Shown piece by piece: positions 14,340 through 20,034 of a DNA stretch of 64,000 nt. Made by a program: the position numbers and the translations under genes. The DNA lies in the NCBI GenBank assembly GCA_963737905.1, contig CAVTUQ010000007.1, forward strand, positions 320,001 to 384,000, in the 5' to 3' direction. The notes under the pieces are model-generated. The model saw only the letters and a list, made by a program, of their open reading frames with translations. It was not told the origin of the DNA and searched no databases. Source of the stretch: an uncultured delta proteobacterium. Lineage in GTDB: Bacteria; Desulfobacterota; Binatia; UBA9968. How positions within the stretch are numbered: position 1 is the stretch's first letter; each line of letters begins with the position of its first letter.

Positions 14340-15080
14340 ATGGGAATTTCAAGCGAGCAGTTCGTTAAAGAGATTCAGCAAATGGTGCGAAGAAAGCACT
14401 CCAAGGACCATCCGATCATCGGCCTGATCGAGGACGGCAAGCTGGACCGGGGACAACTGAAAGGGTTTGTCGGGCAGTTCTATCTTTTTTTTCCGAAACC
14501 GTTTCCCAAGCCCATCGCGGCTATGCTGAGCCGGTGTCCGGATGATCCGGAACTCGAGAAGATGTGGATCGAGAATGTGGTGGAGGAGGGGACAGGGGAG
14601 ATCACGGGCACCGATAGTCACAAAGGACTGTTCATTCGTTTCGCGAACGCCTGCGGATACGGTAAGGAGGAATTGGACCGGGTGGAACCCTTGCCGGAGA
14701 CCGAAGCGTTTTTGGACTGGCGTGAGTTACTCATGTACCAACGCTCCTGGTTGGAGCTCTACGCATGCCAAGGATTTTGTCTCGAGGGTACCGCCAACGA
14801 ACGGATGACGCGCATCGTGAACGGGCTGACGAAATATTACGGATTCGATCGCAACTCGGAAGATATCCGTTATTGGACCTTGCATATGGGAGTGGACGAA
14901 GAGCACATGAAAGTCGGGCCACTGGCGGTGGAGCGATATGCGGTAACGGAGCCGCAACAAGCCCAAGTCCGGGCGTCCGTGCAGAAGACACTGGACCAGT
15001 TTTGGCTGGCATTTGACGGAATCAAGCGCGCGTTTGTCGACAAAGATCCACTCTACGCCAGGTGGCGCAACGGAAACTAA
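14340..15080 (+). CDS. Heme-oxygenase-like diiron protein (PqqC/TenA/CADD superfamily)
   Basis: ENVVEEG...SH, LEG, HMGVDEEH (H-x3-D-x2-H) ligand pattern. Confidence 0.8.
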   Translation: MGISSEQFVKEIQQMVRRKHSKDHPIIGLIEDGKLDRGQLKGFVGQFYLFFPKPFPKPIAAMLSRCPDDPELEKMWIENVVEEGTGEITGTDSHKGLFIRFANACGYGKEELDRVEPLPETEAFLDWRELLMYQRSWLELYACQGFCLEGTANERMTRIVNGLTKYYGFDRNSEDIRYWTLHMGVDEEHMKVGPLAVERYAVTEPQQAQVRASVQKTLDQFWLAFDGIKRAFVDKDPLYARWRNGN

Positions 15081-15093
15081 GGAGGATTTTTCC

Positions 15094-15750
15094 ATGGAAA
15101 TGGTTGATCTCTCGCGGGTGATCTATGACGGAATGCCAAAGATCCCGATTCTTCCTGAAGTTCATGTGCAGAAGTTTTTAAGCTTGGAAAAGGGTCATCC
15201 TTTAAATGTAACCGAGCTTTCTTTGCCTTGCCACGCGGGGACTCACGTCGATGCGCCGATTCACATCGTGCCCAACGGCAAATCCATCGAAGAGCTGCCG
15301 CTCGATGCTTTTGTCGGGACGGGCGCGGTCATCGGCGTGAAAAAGAAGGGCGGGGAAGAGGTCACGGCCAAGGATCTGGAGAGTTCAGGCGTGCCGGTCA
15401 ATCGCGGTGACATTCTGATGCTCTATACCGGTTGGGACGAAAAGTTCGATAGCCCGGACTACAACCTGCATCCCTACCTCTCCGTAGATGCCGCGGAATG
15501 GATGGTCAAAAAAGGGATCAAGATGTTCGGCATCGACTGCATTACGGTTGACCTTCCGACGCCGCTTCGGCCGAAGGGATTTGATTTCCCGGTTCACCGA
15601 ATGTTACTGGGGAACAATGTGCTGATCGCCGAAAACGTAACCAACTTGAGCAGTATAGTCGGCAAGAGGACCAGAATCCTGGCCCTGCCTCTGCGCGTGA
15701 AGGGCAGCGATGCCGGCCATGCCAGGATTGTGGCGGAGGTATTGAACTAA
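15094..15750 (+). CDS. Cyclase family metallo-hydrolase (KynB-like)
   Basis: HAGTHVDAPIH motif; AAGGAGG upstream. Confidence 0.9.
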   Translation: MEMVDLSRVIYDGMPKIPILPEVHVQKFLSLEKGHPLNVTELSLPCHAGTHVDAPIHIVPNGKSIEELPLDAFVGTGAVIGVKKKGGEEVTAKDLESSGVPVNRGDILMLYTGWDEKFDSPDYNLHPYLSVDAAEWMVKKGIKMFGIDCITVDLPTPLRPKGFDFPVHRMLLGNNVLIAENVTNLSSIVGKRTRILALPLRVKGSDAGHARIVAEVLN

Positions 15751-15754
15751 CATC

Positions 15755-16723
15755 ATGGCGCTGACTAAACCCATCAAAGGCATTATCGGAGCTTGCCTTA
15801 CACCGTTCGACGAGAACGATCGGATAAATTACCAGGCGTTGGAGAAAGAAATTGATTTCATCGTTTCTGATTGCGACGCCATCACCATTGCCGCGGTAGA
15901 AGCGGCCGAATATACCATGTTGTCCCGCGATGAGCGGAAGGAAATACTGCGCATTGCCACTGAAATGGTCAACAAGCGCGTGCCGGTCATTCTTGGTTGC
16001 TCGAGCCCGTCTCCTAGAGAGGTCATCGAATTGGCGGAATACTCTGCGAAGGTGGGCGGGGATCTGGTGCAAGTCCTGATGCCGCTTCGGCCCTGGGGAG
16101 GCCAGCCGACGATCGCCGAGTTGATGGAATTCTATACTCAAGTCGCCTCCGCAAGCCCGCTGCCGGTGACCTGTTACCACAACCCGGGACCCGGCGCAGA
16201 TCCGCCGCAGGATGCCTTCGTCAAGATCAGCGAAATCGACAATATTCGTTACTTTAAGGAAAGCTCGCGGGATATTACAAAAATATCCAGATTGATTGAA
16301 CAAATCGATTTAGCCGGACGTGGCTATTATTTTACGACGATGCAACCTCTACTGGTGACTCTGATGCTCGGTGGGTCGGGTGCGACGATGCCGCCGCCGG
16401 GGACCAGAATCGGCGCGCAGATTGTCAGAGCCTTCAGGGCAGGGGATCTCGATACGGCACGCTTCTGGGCGCGCTGCTATGCGCTATTTCCGGGAAAATG
16501 GGCAGCCTACGGTTTACCGCCTGTGATGAAATCGGCGATGAAACATTTTGGTATCGACATCGGAAATCCGTGCCGGCCTTATGCCCCCGTTAGCCCCCGT
16601 GACCATGCACAGATCGGGCAATTTCTCCAACAAGTGGGTCTCATTGGCGAAGCGGGACCGACACCTCAAGCATTGTTGGATGCGGGTGAGAAGCTTCGCC
16701 AGGAAGATACCTTCCTTCGTTAG
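15755..16723 (+). CDS. DHDPS/NAL-family aldolase-like protein
   Basis: LTPFDENDRIN, YHNP, FKESS motifs. Confidence 0.85.
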   Translation: MALTKPIKGIIGACLTPFDENDRINYQALEKEIDFIVSDCDAITIAAVEAAEYTMLSRDERKEILRIATEMVNKRVPVILGCSSPSPREVIELAEYSAKVGGDLVQVLMPLRPWGGQPTIAELMEFYTQVASASPLPVTCYHNPGPGADPPQDAFVKISEIDNIRYFKESSRDITKISRLIEQIDLAGRGYYFTTMQPLLVTLMLGGSGATMPPPGTRIGAQIVRAFRAGDLDTARFWARCYALFPGKWAAYGLPPVMKSAMKHFGIDIGNPCRPYAPVSPRDHAQIGQFLQQVGLIGEAGPTPQALLDAGEKLRQEDTFLR

Positions 16724-16967
16724 CGATTCGCAGCCGTCCTCCCGTTTTCGAAAACTGATTTATGGAATGGATTAAGCATCTTTCGGATAAACTATTAATT
16801 TGGTTTCTGCGCGTAACCTCGGGATTCGGCAAGGAGTTGACTCGCGACGGCAAACGGGAACAGACGGCTCTGGCGCGAACAACGGTTAAGAAACCTCAAA
16901 GGACTCGCGATTCGCTCACGCGAACGGTTCAGGGATAAGAGCACATCAGAGTCATAAATCAGCTGCC

Positions 16968-18125
16968 ATGTCTTTGCCTAACGGAAGGAAACGGATCGTT
17001 ATTCTCGGCGGCGGCTGCGGAGGCGTGGTCGCTGCTACCCATTTGGGCCGGAAACTTGGCGCCGATCACGATGTTATTCTCATCGATCGCCGGGCGGACC
17101 ATATTTTTATGCCGGCGTTCCTCTTCGTCATGCTTGGCGAGCGTCAACCCTGGGATATCAGCCGGAGCCTGAGTCATCTGCAAAAGCGCAATGTCAAAGT
17201 CATACAATCGGAGATACGAGGCATCGATCCAACCAGGCAGGAAGTTTCTCTGGAAAAAGAGAAGGTTAGTTACGATTACCTCATCGTCTCTCTAGGATTG
17301 CAGACGAGGCCGGATCTTGTGCCGGGATTTGCCGAAGCATCAATCCATCCCTGGGAGATGGACTCGGCCGTGCGTCTGCGCGATACATTGACAAGCTTTC
17401 GCGGCGGCCGGATTGTGGTTGGGGTTCCGTTGGGGCCATATCGATGCCCGCCAGCGCCTTACGAAACGCAGTGGATGCTCGACGGATATTTTCGCCAACG
17501 GGGCATTCGTGAGCGAGTCGAGATCGAATATTTCACGCGAGATCCGGAGCCGACCGGCGAGGCCCACGACCCGGTCGTCTGGATGGATACCGAGAGCAAG
17601 CGGCGCAACATAAAGCAAAATTACGAATTCGTGGTCCGAGGCATCGATCCGGAAAAGAAAATCGTAAAGGGTCTCTACAACTATAACCTGTCATACGACC
17701 TGCTGGTCATGGTGCCGCCGCACCGGCCGGCGCAGGTACTCCTCGACAGCGGGCTTGCGGAGACTGAGACCGGCATCCGCGTCGATTACGATACGCTGAA
17801 GACCAAATGGGAAAACGTTTACGCTATCGGTGACTGCGCGGACATGCCGGCTTCAAAGGCCGGCGGTGTGGCACACCAAGAGGCGGATGTACTGGCCCAT
17901 AACCTGGCTGTCGAAATCACCGGAAAAGGCAGGCCCGTCGATCTCTGGCTTCACACCATATGACTGCTCGCTTACGGCGCAGGTCGCGCCGCTGCAAATC
18001 GAACTGTTTATCCCACCGGCTGGCCGCCATTTGGCGTCACTGAACCGCGCACCTGGGGACCCTCGCGGCTTATCTATTGGGCAAAGATTGGTTTCGAGAA
18101 GTGGTGGCTGTGGCGGTATTTTTAA
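16968..18125 (+). CDS. sqr: Sulfide:quinone oxidoreductase-like flavoprotein, probable selenoprotein (UGA at 17961-17963)
   Basis: GGGCGG Rossmann motif, YRCPPAPYE, AIGDC; reading through TGA adds 53 aa ending in WAKIGFEKWWLWRYF. Confidence 0.8.
17975..17991 (+). promoter_or_regulatory. Bacterial SECIS element
   Basis: CGGCGC-AGGTC-GCGCCG hairpin starting 11 nt after the in-frame TGA. Confidence 0.8.
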
Positions 18126-18237
18126 TCATCCCACTTCTTCAGGGACACCAGTTGCGCCCCTTTGATCATCAATTTAAAAAAACCTTGTGGGAGGGGAGAA
18201 AAGTCGCAGGATTTATTAAAAAAGAGCTATTTACAAA

Positions 18238-18265
18238 AGTTGACATAATATATCTTATCAGACGT
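18238..18265 (-). other. Chromosomal dif site (XerC/XerD)
   Basis: Bottom strand ACGTCTGATAA-GATATA-TTATGTCAACT; XerD arm 9/11 to E. coli dif; gene orientation converges on this region. Confidence 0.85.
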
Positions 18266-18511
18266 TACGCTAGCGTAAGCGCCTGGACACAAATTTCGCC
18301 GTTCCAGCCAAACTTGAACGATCACTTCAAAATTTAGGCATCCGCTTTGAAATAGTCGAGCGCGTGAAAAAGCGCGACGACGACATCCCATCCACTCGCG
18401 ATCTACAAATCTTCAAATTAGAGCGCGAAGTCGCCGAGCTTAAAGACAATCGCAAAAACTTAAATTACAATCGGACTCTACCAGGGTCAGCGGGAATCTC
18501 AGACCGAGCTT

Positions 18512-18877
18512 AAAGCCATCGGTCTCGCCGTTGATGCGGGCACAGGTTTTGTACCAGTGGGCGGAGTGGTACGACAGTTTGCAAAAGGTGTTCAACGCGG
18601 AGCAGCAGCCGGCGAAGCCATGGCAGCAGCCAAGACAGCAGCGACGGCGGTCAAAGAAGCGACAGAGAAGAATGCTGACACGTTGATTCAAGATGCCATT
18701 GCGAAGGGGATGAAGACTGAAGGCGTTAAGTTCCCGATGCGGTGGAAAGATATTCCTGTAGATGTAGCAGAAGAGTTTGCGAAAACGGCCATCTATCCTG
18801 CTGGGTTGTCAGCAAGCGGATAAAGCAAAAATCCTTGCGACCCGTAGTAAAGCAGGTCCAGTAGAAAGCATTATTCA
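18512..18877 (+). repeat. Copy 1 of ~360-bp direct repeat (fragment of an Ala/Gly-rich, possibly phage-like gene)
   Basis: Near identical to 26998-27351. Confidence 0.9.
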
Positions 18878-18978
18878 ACAACCGCAAAAACTGACGCCGC
18901 GAGAAGAGTTCACCAGAGCAGGTCGATTCATTACCGATGAGCCGGACTACGAACCGCCTTGCCACTACCCTTTACGTC

Positions 18979-19084
18979 GTAGGATTGAAATATACGACGC
19001 TTCAGCGCAATTTGGGTTCAAACCCCGCGGGGCATTCCAATTGTTTTAAATTCAGACTGAATCACTACCCGCAGTCCCGCTCGT
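18979..19084 (+). repeat. Module copy M0 (palindrome half plus start of leader, truncated)
   Basis: Collinear with 33259-33366. Confidence 0.85.
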
Positions 19085-19152
19085 CGCAAAAGCGCCGGAC
19101 CTCATGGCTGCGCATTCTTCAGGTGCCTAACGTTACTTCACATAAAAGCAGG

Positions 19153-19554
19153 CTACGACGTGCGGCCCCAAGCCTGCGCCTCAATCTTCCAGACGCCATC
19201 GTGATTGGCGAACGTGTACGCAAGGGTACCTGTGCGAACGACGGACTGGCCCTTGATCGTGACAGCGAGAGTCCCTGATATGACTGCATAGGCGGACGAG
19301 CCCTCGACATTCCAGAAGCCCATCTCGTAGGAGAGGTGCTCGTGGGTCACGCCAAGGTCCTCACGCCATTTCGCTACGTCAGCAAGCCAATTGGCCGGAG
19401 CATTTGGGTTCAACCAGCGATAGGGCGCAATGCCGTCGATGATGATCGCGGTGTCCCCGAAAACGCTGAGGAAAAGATCGCTGTCTTGGGTGTTGAAGCC
19501 GTTGATGTGGGCGTCGATTAGAGTCTGGATTCCACCCGGTGGGTTGCTCGTCAT
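19153..19554 (-). CDS. SnoaL/NTF2-like protein
   Basis: GGAGG before MTSNPP; DTAIIIDGIAPYRW, WKIEAQAW. Confidence 0.8.
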   Translation of the reverse strand: MTSNPPGGIQTLIDAHINGFNTQDSDLFLSVFGDTAIIIDGIAPYRWLNPNAPANWLADVAKWREDLGVTHEHLSYEMGFWNVEGSSAYAVISGTLAVTIKGQSVVRTGTLAYTFANHDGVWKIEAQAWGRTS

Positions 19555-19581
19555 GGTAATCCTCCACTGCCGGTAGGCAGC

Positions 19582-19795
19582 TAGTGTCCTGACCCCGAAG
19601 AAAATGAAATAAATAGCACGGTCCACTCGTTTACAGGGAGGCGAGCATGCCACTGGGACGCCCGAAGGTCGCGCTGATTCTGACGGACGACGAGCGCGTA
19701 CGAGTCGACTCGTTGGCTCATCGGTCCCGCACGGCGCCGCGCCTGGCACGTCGGGCGCGGATCATTTCTCGCGTGCGCCGAGGGCTGGGACAGCA
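19582..19795 (+). mobile_element. IS630-family remnant (left end and transposase N-terminus)
   Basis: TA followed by GTGTCCTG; MPLGRPKVALILTDDER...ARRARII. Confidence 0.75.
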
Positions 19796-20034
19796 CATTG
19801 ATTCAAGGACAACTCGAAGCTTCATGCTCCCTCCATCCTGAAACGTTACGCCTCTGGGGCAGAAACAGCAAACTAACCATTGAGTATACTGACCAGTATA
19901 TTACAGAGCCCCAAGTCAGACTGAATCATTATTCAACAGTCCCGCTCGTGGACTCTCAATGTCAGGGAGTAGGTCTACAAGTTTTAAAGGACATTTTGCA
20001 CCTTGAATCATGATTCTTAATCATTTACTTAACA

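What the first reader, a model, noticed from the sequence alone, without database searches (positions are those of the whole stretch)
16968..18125. Probable selenocysteine-containing sulfide:quinone oxidoreductase
Seen: the ORF stops at HTI-TGA (17961), but the same frame continues LLAYGAGRAA...PSRLIYWAKIGFEKWWLWRYF-TAA (18125), the typical SQR C-terminal helix. A hairpin CGGCGC-AGGTC-GCGCCG starts 11 nt after the UGA. Known: the E. coli fdhF SECIS has this spacing and a GCAGGTC apex, and SQRs use a Cys pair (CPxAPYE plus a C-terminal Cys in a C-F/L-x-E-x-G-x-G context). Inference: Sec replaces the second catalytic Cys, giving a Cys/Sec redox pair. I do not recall SQR among classical bacterial selenoprotein families, but could not search.
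Basis: partly seen in the sequence, partly recalled or inferred. Interest (0 to 1): 0.85.

Follow-up and report, generated by a model that had tools for sequence, protein, structure and literature searches.

The report
Selenocysteine sulfide:quinone reductase-like gene, Binatia
This soil bacterium's sulfide:quinone-reductase-like flavoenzyme almost certainly carries selenocysteine in place of one of its two catalytic cysteines, a kind of selenoprotein predicted in 2025 in another bacterial group but, in this separate lineage, still annotated in the database entries seen here as a truncated protein.

Summary
The ORF 16968-17963 stops at TGA, and the same frame stays open to TAA at 18123-18125. 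A 6-bp GC hairpin starts 11 nt after the TGA.

The TGA is very probably a selenocysteine codon:
- It aligns with the second redox Cys of solved SQRs.
- It is kept in all 53 relative-genome matches that span it (68-100% identity).
- A 73%-identical Cys-form ortholog exists.
- The three synonymous sites in the hairpin stem are the three most constrained of 102 in the gene.
- selA, selB and a Sec-containing selD are in the genome. tRNA-Sec is missing from this 87%-complete assembly but present in 5 of 5 relatives checked.

The kind is not new. [quoted passage not shown]

The window protein scores 261 bits against that model's 525-bit cut-off, is about 35% identical to its members, and has a different SECIS. 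It is therefore a separate lineage, found in Binatia-titled MAGs. 119 of the 120 best database hits are entries cut at about 331 aa.

Verdict: a real selenoprotein gene and a new member of a known kind. Selenium incorporation and enzyme activity are untested.

The parts
16968..17960 (+). First part of the coding sequence (residues 1-331). It holds the FAD-binding GGGCGG motif (residues 14-19) and the first redox cysteine, Cys160, in YRCPPAPYE (17445-17447).
   Evidence: Pyr_redox_2 7.9e-20; FCSD_central 5.2e-8. Cys160 aligns with the Cys of VKCAGAPQ in human SQOR. G14, G19 and C160 are invariant in 61 family members.
17958..17960 (+). Ile331 codon ATA directly 5' of the UGA, fixed at the nucleotide level.
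   Evidence: ATA in 54 of 54 orthologs with Ile here, against 24 of 525 ATA in the ten other conserved Ile columns. ATA in 60 of 61 distinct sequences.
17961..17963 (+). In-frame TGA, proposed selenocysteine codon (Sec332). It replaces the second redox cysteine.
17975..17991 (+). Proposed bacterial SECIS core: a 6-bp stem CGGCGC/GCGCCG with the 5-nt apical loop AGGUC. 17 nt lie between the UGA and the loop.
   Evidence: fold; 99.5% of 366 cells paired, no compensatory change; stem synonymous sites frozen, loop sites free; published bSECIS criteria, all four met.
17964..18122 (+). Second part of the coding sequence (residues 333-385), ending in the aromatic and basic tail PSRLIYWAKIGFEKWWLWRYF.
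   Evidence: 53 open codons follow the Sec TGA in the 28 of 30 loci that script extracted correctly (all 30 have the TGA); this part aligns with the C-terminal parts of Aquifex and Acidithiobacillus SQRs (family-profile positions up to 383 of 384).
18123..18125 (+). True stop codon, TAA.

Best explanation
The gene at 16968-18125 encodes one 385-residue FAD flavoprotein of the sulfide:quinone oxidoreductase (SQR) family, in an uncultured soil bacterium whose relatives' records are mostly titled Candidatus Binatia. UGA332 is decoded as selenocysteine. Inferred mechanism of decoding: SelB carrying Sec-tRNASec binds the GC hairpin 11 nt downstream (stem CGGCGC/GCGCCG, loop N-G-G-N-C) and delivers Sec to the ribosome in competition with release factor 2. 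The fixed AUA before the UGA and the C after it probably tune that competition. In the folded enzyme, Sec332 takes the place of the C-terminal redox cysteine and pairs with Cys160 (YRCPPAPYE) beside the flavin, so the redox centre would be a Cys/Sec pair (a selenenylsulfide or a sulfur-bridged form). Sulfide would be oxidised to sulfane sulfur on this pair, and electrons would pass through FAD to a membrane quinone. Shown here: the conserved UGA, the Cys homology, the RNA-level constraint on the hairpin, and the presence of selA, selB and selD. Inferred: actual Se insertion, the chemistry of the Cys/Sec pair, sulfide as the substrate, and membrane binding through the aromatic C-terminal tail.
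For: 1. Conservation of the TGA. All 53 matches in relatives' genomes that span residue 332 carry exactly one TGA, at 68-100% identity, in 3 families and about 25 genera. Of 85 loci that cover the site, 84 have TGA there; the 85th (L109, 30-36% identical) has Cys. These give 61 distinct 81-nt sequences, because the two collections overlap. 53 sense codons with conserved protein sequence follow, and 8 of the 28 correctly extracted orthologs end in TGA as the true stop, so TGA is a normal stop in this clade. 2. Cys homology. U332 aligns with the Cys of YTSCPLVTG in human SQOR, E 6e-34. The column is Cys in 111 of 126 filled rows of the 152-row family alignment. P0010, 385 aa and 73% identical, reads LHTICLLAFEPGKAA, with Cys at the site and the hairpin codons changed. 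3. RNA constraint. Of 102 conserved four-fold degenerate sites in 55 distinct orthologs, the three with the lowest third-position entropy (0.13-0.23 bits; median 1.60; next lowest 0.58) are exactly Gly337, Arg340 and Ala341, the stem codons. The Gly and Ala codons in the loop and flanks use all four bases. All stem changes are C-to-U or G·U-compatible. A Rubrobacteraceae-titled MAG homolog, 46-51% identical, keeps the TGA and a hairpin at the same place with slid pairs. 4. All four published bSECIS criteria are met: loop 5 nt, stem 6 bp, G at loop position 2, 17-nt spacing, -11.8 kcal/mol (criteria from the Fig. 2 legend of PMC13188914; measurements). 5. Machinery. selB scores 410 bits, selA 607 bits and selD 381 bits, clustered on contig C29. 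selD itself has Sec in AAGUAAK. selB is over its cut-off in 54 of 61 relatives. tRNA-Sec scores 73-78 bits in 5 of 5 relatives tested. 6. SQR family. Pyr_redox_2 and FCSD_central match. The family profile matches human, Acidianus, Aquifex and Acidithiobacillus SQRs over almost full length, E 1e-55 to 1e-78. 7. Precedent. NF049943 members carry Sec at the homologous position.
Against: No tRNA-Sec was found in the window's own assembly. The best RF01852 hit scores 46.6 bits and is a tRNA-Leu. ARAGORN finds none at default settings. blastn with the relatives' tRNA-Sec finds nothing. The assembly is 87.5% complete. There is no compensatory (two-sided) base-pair change in the stem: 0 of 6 pairs, and the covariation score equals that of the shuffles. 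Single-sequence folding energy is not better than shuffles. Six relatives (66-96% complete) have a match to the gene but no selB hit; in one of them, G034, the match is cut before residue 332 and shows no TGA. Expression is barely shown: two soil RNA-library contigs of about 200 nt lie inside the gene but do not reach the TGA, and DNA carry-over is not excluded. No neighbouring gene points to sulfur metabolism. Nothing here shows selenium in the protein or sulfide:quinone activity. The C-terminal tail was not among the top amphipathic windows.
Confidence: 0.88

Rival explanations
1. It is a genuine selenoprotein of the SQR fold, but its physiological reaction is not sulfide:quinone oxidation. 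It could, for example, be a persulfide/polysulfide or CoA-persulfide-type reductase, an NDH-2-like quinone reductase, or an enzyme acting on selenide.
For: The clade is only about 30-39% identical to any other family member and to solved SQRs. It lacks the Glu of the family's C-F-x-E-x-G motif. No sulfur-oxidation genes lie next to it; the neighbours are of the Haem_oxygenas_2, cyclase and DHDPS families, and downstream genes in related loci look housekeeping, read from translations only. The family profile also hits NDH-2 and CoA-persulfide reductases, though more weakly. A bioRxiv abstract in the search listing reports that SQOR can oxidise hydrogen selenide.
Against: The best solved matches over the full length are all SQRs or flavocytochrome c sulfide dehydrogenases. 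Both redox positions typical of SQRs are kept. FCSD_central is matched.
Confidence: 0.2
2. The TGA is a true stop. The cell makes a 331-residue truncated flavoprotein, and the downstream 53 codons are a decaying remnant or a separate small gene.
For: Public gene callers annotate it so: 119 of the 120 best database hits are 328-334 aa. No tRNA-Sec is in this assembly.
Against: The 53 downstream codons stay open and conserved in protein sequence from 100% down to 46-51% identity. No start codon follows the TGA. The truncated product would lack a catalytic Cys that is invariant in the 61 aligned family members, as well as the C-terminal part that aligns with solved SQRs. The fused Cys form exists.
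Confidence: 0.03
3. The TGA is read through as another amino acid (Trp, Cys or Gly, by near-cognate suppression or an altered genetic code) rather than as Sec.
For: Read-through alone would also keep the downstream frame under selection. Two of 126 family rows have Trp in this column.
Against: TGA serves as the terminal stop in 8 of the 28 correctly extracted orthologs. selA, selB and selD are present, and selD itself uses TGA at its known Sec/Cys site. The hairpin fits the SelB-type SECIS criteria and is under synonymous constraint. The homologous residue is a redox Cys.
Confidence: 0.03
4. Assembly or sequencing artefact, or a recent pseudogene in this one MAG.
For: The genome is a draft MAG (46 contigs, 6.7% contamination).
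Against: The same TGA is in 84 loci from independent assemblies. It is also in contigs of two soil studies that bridge the site with no difference at 17961-17963.
Confidence: 0.01

Closest known systems
[quoted passage not shown] Listed with motif HxxU in the table of PMC13188914 (passage read).
   Same: It is the same superfamily and has about the same length. Sec sits at the homologous column: a truncated member, P0175, ends at query residue 331, and true members L126-L129 read DGHAT-U. Cys-form relatives exist in both clades. Both have a SECIS hairpin inside the coding sequence just downstream of the UGA.
   Different: The window protein scores 261 bits against the 525-bit cut-off. Its Cys ortholog scores 248 and L104 scores 207, whereas the true member L126 scores 663.7. 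Identity is about 35%. The flanking motif is LHTI-U-LLAYGAGRAA, not DGHAT-U-MVVTGYEKGSLL. The SECIS is different: CGGCGC-NGGNC-GCGCCG at +11, against CGAGAAGG-GGUC-CCUUCUCG about 20 nt after the UGA. On a rough FastTree tree the two clades are separated by starred branches with Cys forms between them.
Solved sulfide:quinone oxidoreductases: human SQOR (8dhk, 6oi5 and others), Acidianus ambivalens (3h8i), Aquifex aeolicus (3hyv) and Acidithiobacillus ferrooxidans (3sz0 and others).
   Same: The alignment covers nearly the full length. Both redox positions are kept: Cys160 aligns with the Cys of VKCAGAPQ, and residue 332 with the Cys of YTSCPLVTG. From memory, not from a call: these are human Cys201 and Cys379, which hold the catalytic trisulfide.
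   Different: Sec replaces the second Cys. Identity is only about 25-30%. No third cysteine of the type I enzymes was looked for. The Glu of the family motif after the Cys is absent.
E. coli fdhF-type bacterial SECIS, and the bSECIS consensus (Fig. 2 legend of PMC13188914, section read).
   Same: It is a stem-loop inside the ORF directly after the UGA. It has a small apical loop with G-G at positions 2-3, 17-nt spacing (allowed range 16-37), a 6-bp stem and an energy below -7.5 kcal/mol.
   Different: The stem is short, purely G-C, and shows no bulge. Loop positions 1 and 4 vary freely among orthologs.

Membership tests
Bacterial selenoprotein gene (Sec-UGA plus bSECIS) | An in-frame UGA conserved among orthologs, with conserved coding sequence downstream. 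| tested here: met
   53 of 53 spanning matches carry one TGA. 84 of 85 loci covering the site have TGA. 53 open, conserved codons follow.
Bacterial selenoprotein gene (Sec-UGA plus bSECIS) | Homologs with Cys aligned to the UGA. | tested here: met
   P0010 (73% identical) has Cys. The column is Cys in 111 of 126 filled rows. Human SQOR has Cys there.
Bacterial selenoprotein gene (Sec-UGA plus bSECIS) | A SECIS stem-loop meeting the bSECIS consensus: loop 3-9 nt, stem 4-16 bp, G in the first two loop positions, 16-37 nt from the UGA, energy at or below -7.5 kcal/mol. | tested here: met
   Criteria. Measured here: loop 5 nt (AGGUC), stem 6 bp, 17-nt spacing, -11.8 kcal/mol. Synonymous-site constraint supports it. 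Covariation gives no support: 0 compensatory pairs.
Bacterial selenoprotein gene (Sec-UGA plus bSECIS) | Sec machinery in the same genome: selA, selB, selD and tRNA-Sec. | tested here: inconclusive
   selA, selB and selD are over their cut-offs. tRNA-Sec was not found in the 87.5%-complete assembly. It is present in 5 of 5 relatives.
Bacterial selenoprotein gene (Sec-UGA plus bSECIS) | Selenium demonstrated in the polypeptide. | not testable with these tools
   This needs 75Se labelling or mass spectrometry.
Sulfide:quinone oxidoreductase (SQR/FCSD flavoprotein family) | A two-dinucleotide-binding-domain FAD fold with an N-terminal GxGxxG motif, and full-length similarity to solved SQRs. | tested here: met
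   Pyr_redox_2 and FCSD_central match. Human SQOR matches at 6e-34. The family profile matches four solved SQR types at 1e-55 to 1e-78. No 3-D model was made because the tool was off.
Sulfide:quinone oxidoreductase (SQR/FCSD flavoprotein family) | The redox-active cysteine pair (CxxAPxE Cys plus the C-terminal Cys). | tested here: met
   C160 and position 332 are invariant columns in 61 full-length members. Here the second position is Sec.
Sulfide:quinone oxidoreductase (SQR/FCSD flavoprotein family) | C-terminal amphipathic helices for monotopic membrane binding. | tested here: inconclusive
   The tail aligns with the C-termini of solved SQRs and is rich in Trp, Tyr, Phe, Lys and Arg. It was not among the six highest hydrophobic-moment windows.
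Sulfide:quinone oxidoreductase (SQR/FCSD flavoprotein family) | Sulfide-dependent quinone reduction. | not testable with these tools
   This needs an enzyme assay.
NCBIfam NF049943 (type III SQR, selenoprotein subtype) | A score at or above the curated 525-bit cut-off. | tested here: not met
   261 bits and 254.7 bits on the genome. The positive control L126 scores 663.7 bits.
NCBIfam NF049943 (type III SQR, selenoprotein subtype) | Sec at the HxxU position, homologous to the C-terminal redox Cys. | tested here: met
   HTIU here against HATU in L126-L129. P0175 ends at query residue 331. The motif HxxU is given in the review table.

The most novel reading that the evidence does not exclude
Selenocysteine has replaced the same catalytic cysteine of SQR-like flavoproteins independently in several lineages. 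At least two are verified here: the Binatia-type clade, and NF049943 with its different SECIS. Up to five are suggested by family representatives whose predicted proteins end exactly one residue before that Cys. In the Binatia order the Sec form is the ancestral, near-universal, vertically inherited state, with occasional reversion to Cys (P0010). That would make the SQR C-terminal Cys a recurrent hot spot for Cys-to-Sec exchange. It would also give soil Binatia a selenium-dependent sulfide-oxidising (or selenide-handling) enzyme that current annotation misses.
Probability: 0.55. Interest if true: 0.55.

Novelty: new member of a known kind. Interest (0 to 1): 0.45.

Why it matters
It corrects a systematic mis-annotation. 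119 of the 120 best database hits to this protein are entries cut at about 331 aa, so they lack a catalytic residue and the C-terminal part. NCBI's existing selenoprotein-SQR model does not reach this clade (261 against 525 bits), so pipelines that rely on it will keep truncating the gene.

The result adds a second, well-supported lineage of Sec-containing SQR-like enzymes. It has its own SECIS and is present in 55 of 61 sampled genomes of an uncultured, soil-abundant order. This implies a selenium requirement for these organisms.

It also offers a natural Cys/Sec pair (P0010 against the window protein) for asking what Sec does to the SQR persulfide or trisulfide chemistry.

Tried and rejected
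Rfam scan of 15000-20000 at E up to 1 found nothing. Bacterial SECIS elements of this kind are evidently not matched by any model there.

Promoter and terminator scan of 16600-18500: one promoter-like site downstream of the gene and no terminator, both within shuffle expectation.

Covariation test of the hairpin: 0 pairs with two-sided change, and every measure equals the shuffles. The stem is too invariant for this test, so I used synonymous-site entropy instead.

Single-sequence folding z-scores are not significant.

Hydrophobic-moment scan: the C-terminal tail is not among the top six 18-residue windows. Those lie at residues 57-81 and 220-238. An amphipathic anchor is therefore not supported by this crude measure.

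Neighbourhood: no sulfur-metabolism genes are nearby. ORF clustering of the flanks of 50 related loci was muddied by spurious GC-rich ORFs. It showed only that the upstream genes (one cluster in 36 of 50 loci resembles the Haem_oxygenas_2-type neighbour; two mixed clusters in 45 of 50) keep their place, and that the downstream genes look housekeeping. These readings come from the translations alone, with no Pfam scan of those clusters.

Expression: two RNA-library contigs (201 and 213 nt, one study) lie inside the gene but do not reach the TGA. This is not evidence of transcription through the site.

Relaxed ARAGORN thresholds gave only low-scoring 'tRNA-SeC' calls among 222-1210 spurious tRNAs. 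I rejected these as noise.

Literature: searches 'selenoprotein' + 'sulfide quinone' (32 papers), 'selenocysteine' + 'Binat' (13 papers) and 'selenocysteine' + 'SQR' + 'sulfide' (30 papers) gave no paper on a Sec-SQR in Binatia. I read listings and abstract starts only, except for PMC13188914 (passages and sections 5 and 13) and PMC12013277 (passages). Supplements of deep-Sep (its Table S2) were not seen and may list further organisms.

The SQR 'type' (I-VI) of this clade was not determined.

Full report
OBSERVATION. The window holds an ORF from ATG 16968 to TGA 17961-17963 (331 aa). Read with TGA as a residue, the same frame continues for 53 more codons to TAA at 18123-18125, giving a 385-residue product. 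Eleven nucleotides after the TGA lies CGGCGC-AGGTC-GCGCCG (17975-17991). RNA folding recovers it as a 6-bp hairpin with a 5-nt loop. By itself the fold is unremarkable for this GC-rich sequence: 188 of 200 and 177 of 200 shuffles fold at least as well.

WHAT THE PROTEIN IS. Pfam gives Pyr_redox_2 (7.9e-20) and FCSD_central (5.2e-8). The best solved relatives are human SQOR (6.4e-34), Acidianus SQR, flavocytochrome c sulfide dehydrogenases and Aquifex SQR. The Aquifex match covers residues 8-383. A profile of 61 family members matches all four solved SQR types at 1e-55 to 1e-78 over profile positions 3-383. The part after the TGA is therefore homologous to the C-terminal part of SQRs.

In the alignment with human SQOR, Cys160 (YRCPPAPYE) pairs with the Cys of VKCAGAPQ, and residue 332 pairs with the Cys of YTSCPLVTG. 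From memory, not from a call, these are the two cysteines that hold the catalytic trisulfide.

In a 152-row alignment of the query, P0010 and the 150 best 50%-identity cluster representatives, the column of residue 332 is Cys in 111 of the 126 rows that have a residue there. One of these is the query's own placeholder C. The other 15 rows have A, F, W, L, S, T, I or Q. In 61 chosen full-length members, C160 and position 332 are two of only eight invariant columns.

IS THE TGA A SEC CODON? Five lines of evidence bear on this.

(a) Conservation. 55 of 61 genomes of the window's order have a match. All 53 matches that span residue 332 carry exactly one TGA, at 68-100% protein identity. The non-spanning matches are contig-end fragments, one piece with a TAA in a split match, and one 29%-identical paralog without stops.

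I examined 89 loci in all (L025-L113; the two collections overlap). 80 show H-T-[IL]-TGA-L-L, and 4 more (L095, L097, L099, L104) have TGA at the site by tblastn. 4 do not cover the site. One distant homolog (L109, 30-36% identical) has Cys. The 80 give 61 distinct 81-nt sequences. 53 open codons follow the Sec TGA in the 28 of 30 loci extracted correctly, and 8 of these end with TGA as the true stop. TGA is therefore an ordinary stop in this clade.

(b) A Cys-form ortholog. Of the 120 best database hits, 119 are 328-334 aa, that is, called up to the TGA. One, P0010, is 385 aa and 73% identical. It reads LHTICLLAFEPGKAA, with Cys at the site and different residues at the codons that form the hairpin (G-A-G-R becomes E-P-G-K).

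(c) Constraint at the RNA level. In the 61 distinct sequences the hairpin pairs in 99.5% of 366 cells. The stem hardly varies, so there is no compensatory change and no covariation signal. The codon data are informative instead:
- Gly337 in the stem is GGC 60, GGT 1, while Gly339 in the loop is GGA 29, GGG 18, GGC 8, GGT 6.
- Arg340 in the stem is CGC 59, CGT 1, AGC 1, while Arg345 uses five different codons.
- Ala341 in the stem is GCC 59, GCT 2, while the Ala codons at 335, 338, 342 and 343 use all four bases.
Across the whole gene in 55 distinct orthologs, the three lowest third-position entropies among 102 conserved four-fold sites are exactly these three stem sites (0.13, 0.13 and 0.23 bits; next lowest 0.58; median 1.60). 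By my own arithmetic, if any three of the 102 sites were equally likely to rank lowest, the chance of this would be 1 in 171,700. Related sequences are not independent, so this is indicative only. Every stem change seen keeps a G·U pair.

A homolog in a Rubrobacteraceae-titled MAG (L104, 46-51% identical) also has TGA, followed by Y-G-A-G-R-A-A. Its codons are GGG, GCC, GGT, CGG and GCC, which fold into a 7-bp hairpin with the loop GGUCG, slid by one position.

(d) The hairpin meets all four published bSECIS criteria: loop 3-9 nt, stem 4-16 bp, G in the first two loop positions, 16-37 nt between the UGA and the loop, and energy at or below -7.5 kcal/mol. The criteria come from the Fig. 2 legend of PMC13188914. 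Measured here: 5 nt, 6 bp, A-G-G-U-C, 17 nt and -11.8 kcal/mol.

(e) Machinery. selB (409.8 bits), selA (606.9 bits) and selD (381.4 bits) lie together on contig C29. selD itself has an in-frame TGA in AAG-U-AAK. selB is over its cut-off in 54 of 61 relatives. Crossing searches gives gene plus selB in 49 genomes, gene only in 6 (66-96% complete), selB only in 5, and neither in 1 (G009, 100% complete).

The weak point is tRNA-Sec. None is in the window's own assembly by Rfam (the best hit, 46.6 bits, is a tRNA-Leu), by ARAGORN, or by blastn with the relatives' genes. The assembly is 87.5% complete in 46 contigs. Five of five good relatives have a clear tRNA-Sec (73-78 bits, anticodon TCA).

AN EXTRA FEATURE. 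The Ile codon just before the UGA is ATA in 54 of 54 orthologs, against 24 of 525 ATA at the ten other conserved Ile columns. The base after the UGA is C in 59 of 61. I read this as context selection at the recoding site, on the P-site codon and the +4 base. From memory, UGA-C is a weak termination context in E. coli. This reading is an inference.

COMPARISON WITH WHAT IS KNOWN. [quoted passage not shown] A 2026 review table lists it with motif HxxU and cites deep-Sep (reference list). [quoted passage not shown]

The window protein is not a member of that model. It scores 261 bits against a cut-off of 525. True members were identified here:
- P0175, a 330-aa truncated entry, scores 525.3 bits on profile positions 1-330 of 406.
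- Cys forms P0191, P0264 and P0159 score 583-627 bits.
- The read-through product of L126 scores 663.7 bits.
In a 301-genome sample of the phylum, 8 matches from other families (f17, f48) carry one TGA and 14 carry none, all at 32-41% identity to the window protein. None of the 8 sampled genomes from other orders of the class had a match at E 1e-50. In the four loci I inspected (L126-L129), the TGA sits at the homologous position (DGHAT-U-MVVTGYEKGSLL) and is followed by a different hairpin, CGAGAAGG-GGUC-CCUUCUCG.

On a rough FastTree tree of 130 representatives, the window protein, P0010 and P0123 (58% identical, also ending at residue 331) form a 100%-supported clade on a long branch. This clade is separate from the NF049943 clade, with Cys forms between them. 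Starred branches force at least 5 changes for the 6 rows labelled as probable Sec forms. For three of those rows (P0168, P0188, P0234) 'Sec' is inferred only from the protein ending one residue before the Cys. I had no DNA for them.

ORGANISM AND HABITAT. Related loci come from MAGs titled mostly Candidatus Binatia, Deltaproteobacteria or Thermodesulfobacteriota. A few carry other labels (Acidobacteriota, Verrucomicrobiia, Udaeobacter), which may be binning or naming noise. Near-identical DNA is held by soil metagenome runs of several studies. Contigs of two studies bridge the TGA without change.

MECHANISM. The best reading is a SelB- and SECIS-directed insertion of Sec332 into an SQR-type flavoprotein, giving a Cys160/Sec332 redox pair next to FAD. 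The conserved recoding signal, the Cys homology and the presence of the Sec genes are shown. Actual Se insertion, sulfide as the substrate, quinone as the acceptor and membrane binding are inferred. The gene neighbourhood gives no functional hint. A reaction other than sulfide:quinone oxidation keeps about 0.2 probability.

NOVELTY AND VERDICT. This is a real feature and a correct interpretation. It is a new member (a second, distinct lineage) of a kind already described computationally in 2025. Its value lies in three things:
- correcting a widespread truncated annotation;
- showing repeated use of Sec at the same SQR catalytic position, with unrelated SECIS elements;
- showing that the Sec form is near-universal in an uncultured soil order.
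Interest is 0.45.

Noticed in passing
window 17958-17964: The codon before the Sec-UGA is ATA in 54 of 54 orthologs, against 4.6% ATA at the other conserved Ile columns. The base after the UGA is C in 59 of 61. This looks like selected sequence context at the recoding site, beyond the hairpin.
   Followed up: partly
G000 contig C29:71024-75669 (loci L001, L009, L011): selD, selB and selA are clustered. selD is itself a selenoprotein, with TGA in AAG-U-AAK near the N-terminus. No tRNA-Sec lies next to them or anywhere else in the assembly.
   Followed up: yes
L126-L129 (genomes G111, G304, G148, G332; family f17): These are true NF049943 selenoprotein SQRs, with DGHAT-TGA-MVVTGYEKGSLL and an 8-bp hairpin with loop GGUC. 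L130 (G214) is the Cys form, DGHATCYVVTGYEKG.
   Followed up: yes
L104:3931-3990 (Rubrobacteraceae-titled MAG): A 46-51% identical homolog outside the Binatia order also has TGA at the site. The hairpin is kept with different synonymous codons, and the stem is slid by one position.
   Followed up: partly
proteins P0168, P0188, P0234 (family representatives): These three further SQR-like representatives, from other branches of the tree, end exactly one residue before the catalytic Cys column. They are possibly further unrecognised Sec forms. No DNA was available to check.
   Followed up: no
genome G009 (same family, 100% complete): It is the only sampled relative that lacks both selB and this gene. 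This could be loss of the whole Sec trait together with its client gene.
   Followed up: no
window 14340-16723: Three upstream same-strand genes (Haem_oxygenas_2/TENA-like, putative cyclase, DHDPS family) appear to keep their place next to the gene in most of the 50 related loci: one cluster in 36 of 50, and mixed clusters in 45 of 50. Their function and any link to the SQR-like gene are unknown.
   Followed up: partly
L095 and L097: Two orthologous loci have local assembly problems: a frame shift near residue 320 in L095, and a masked run of N in L097. Both still show the TGA and the hairpin.
   Followed up: yes
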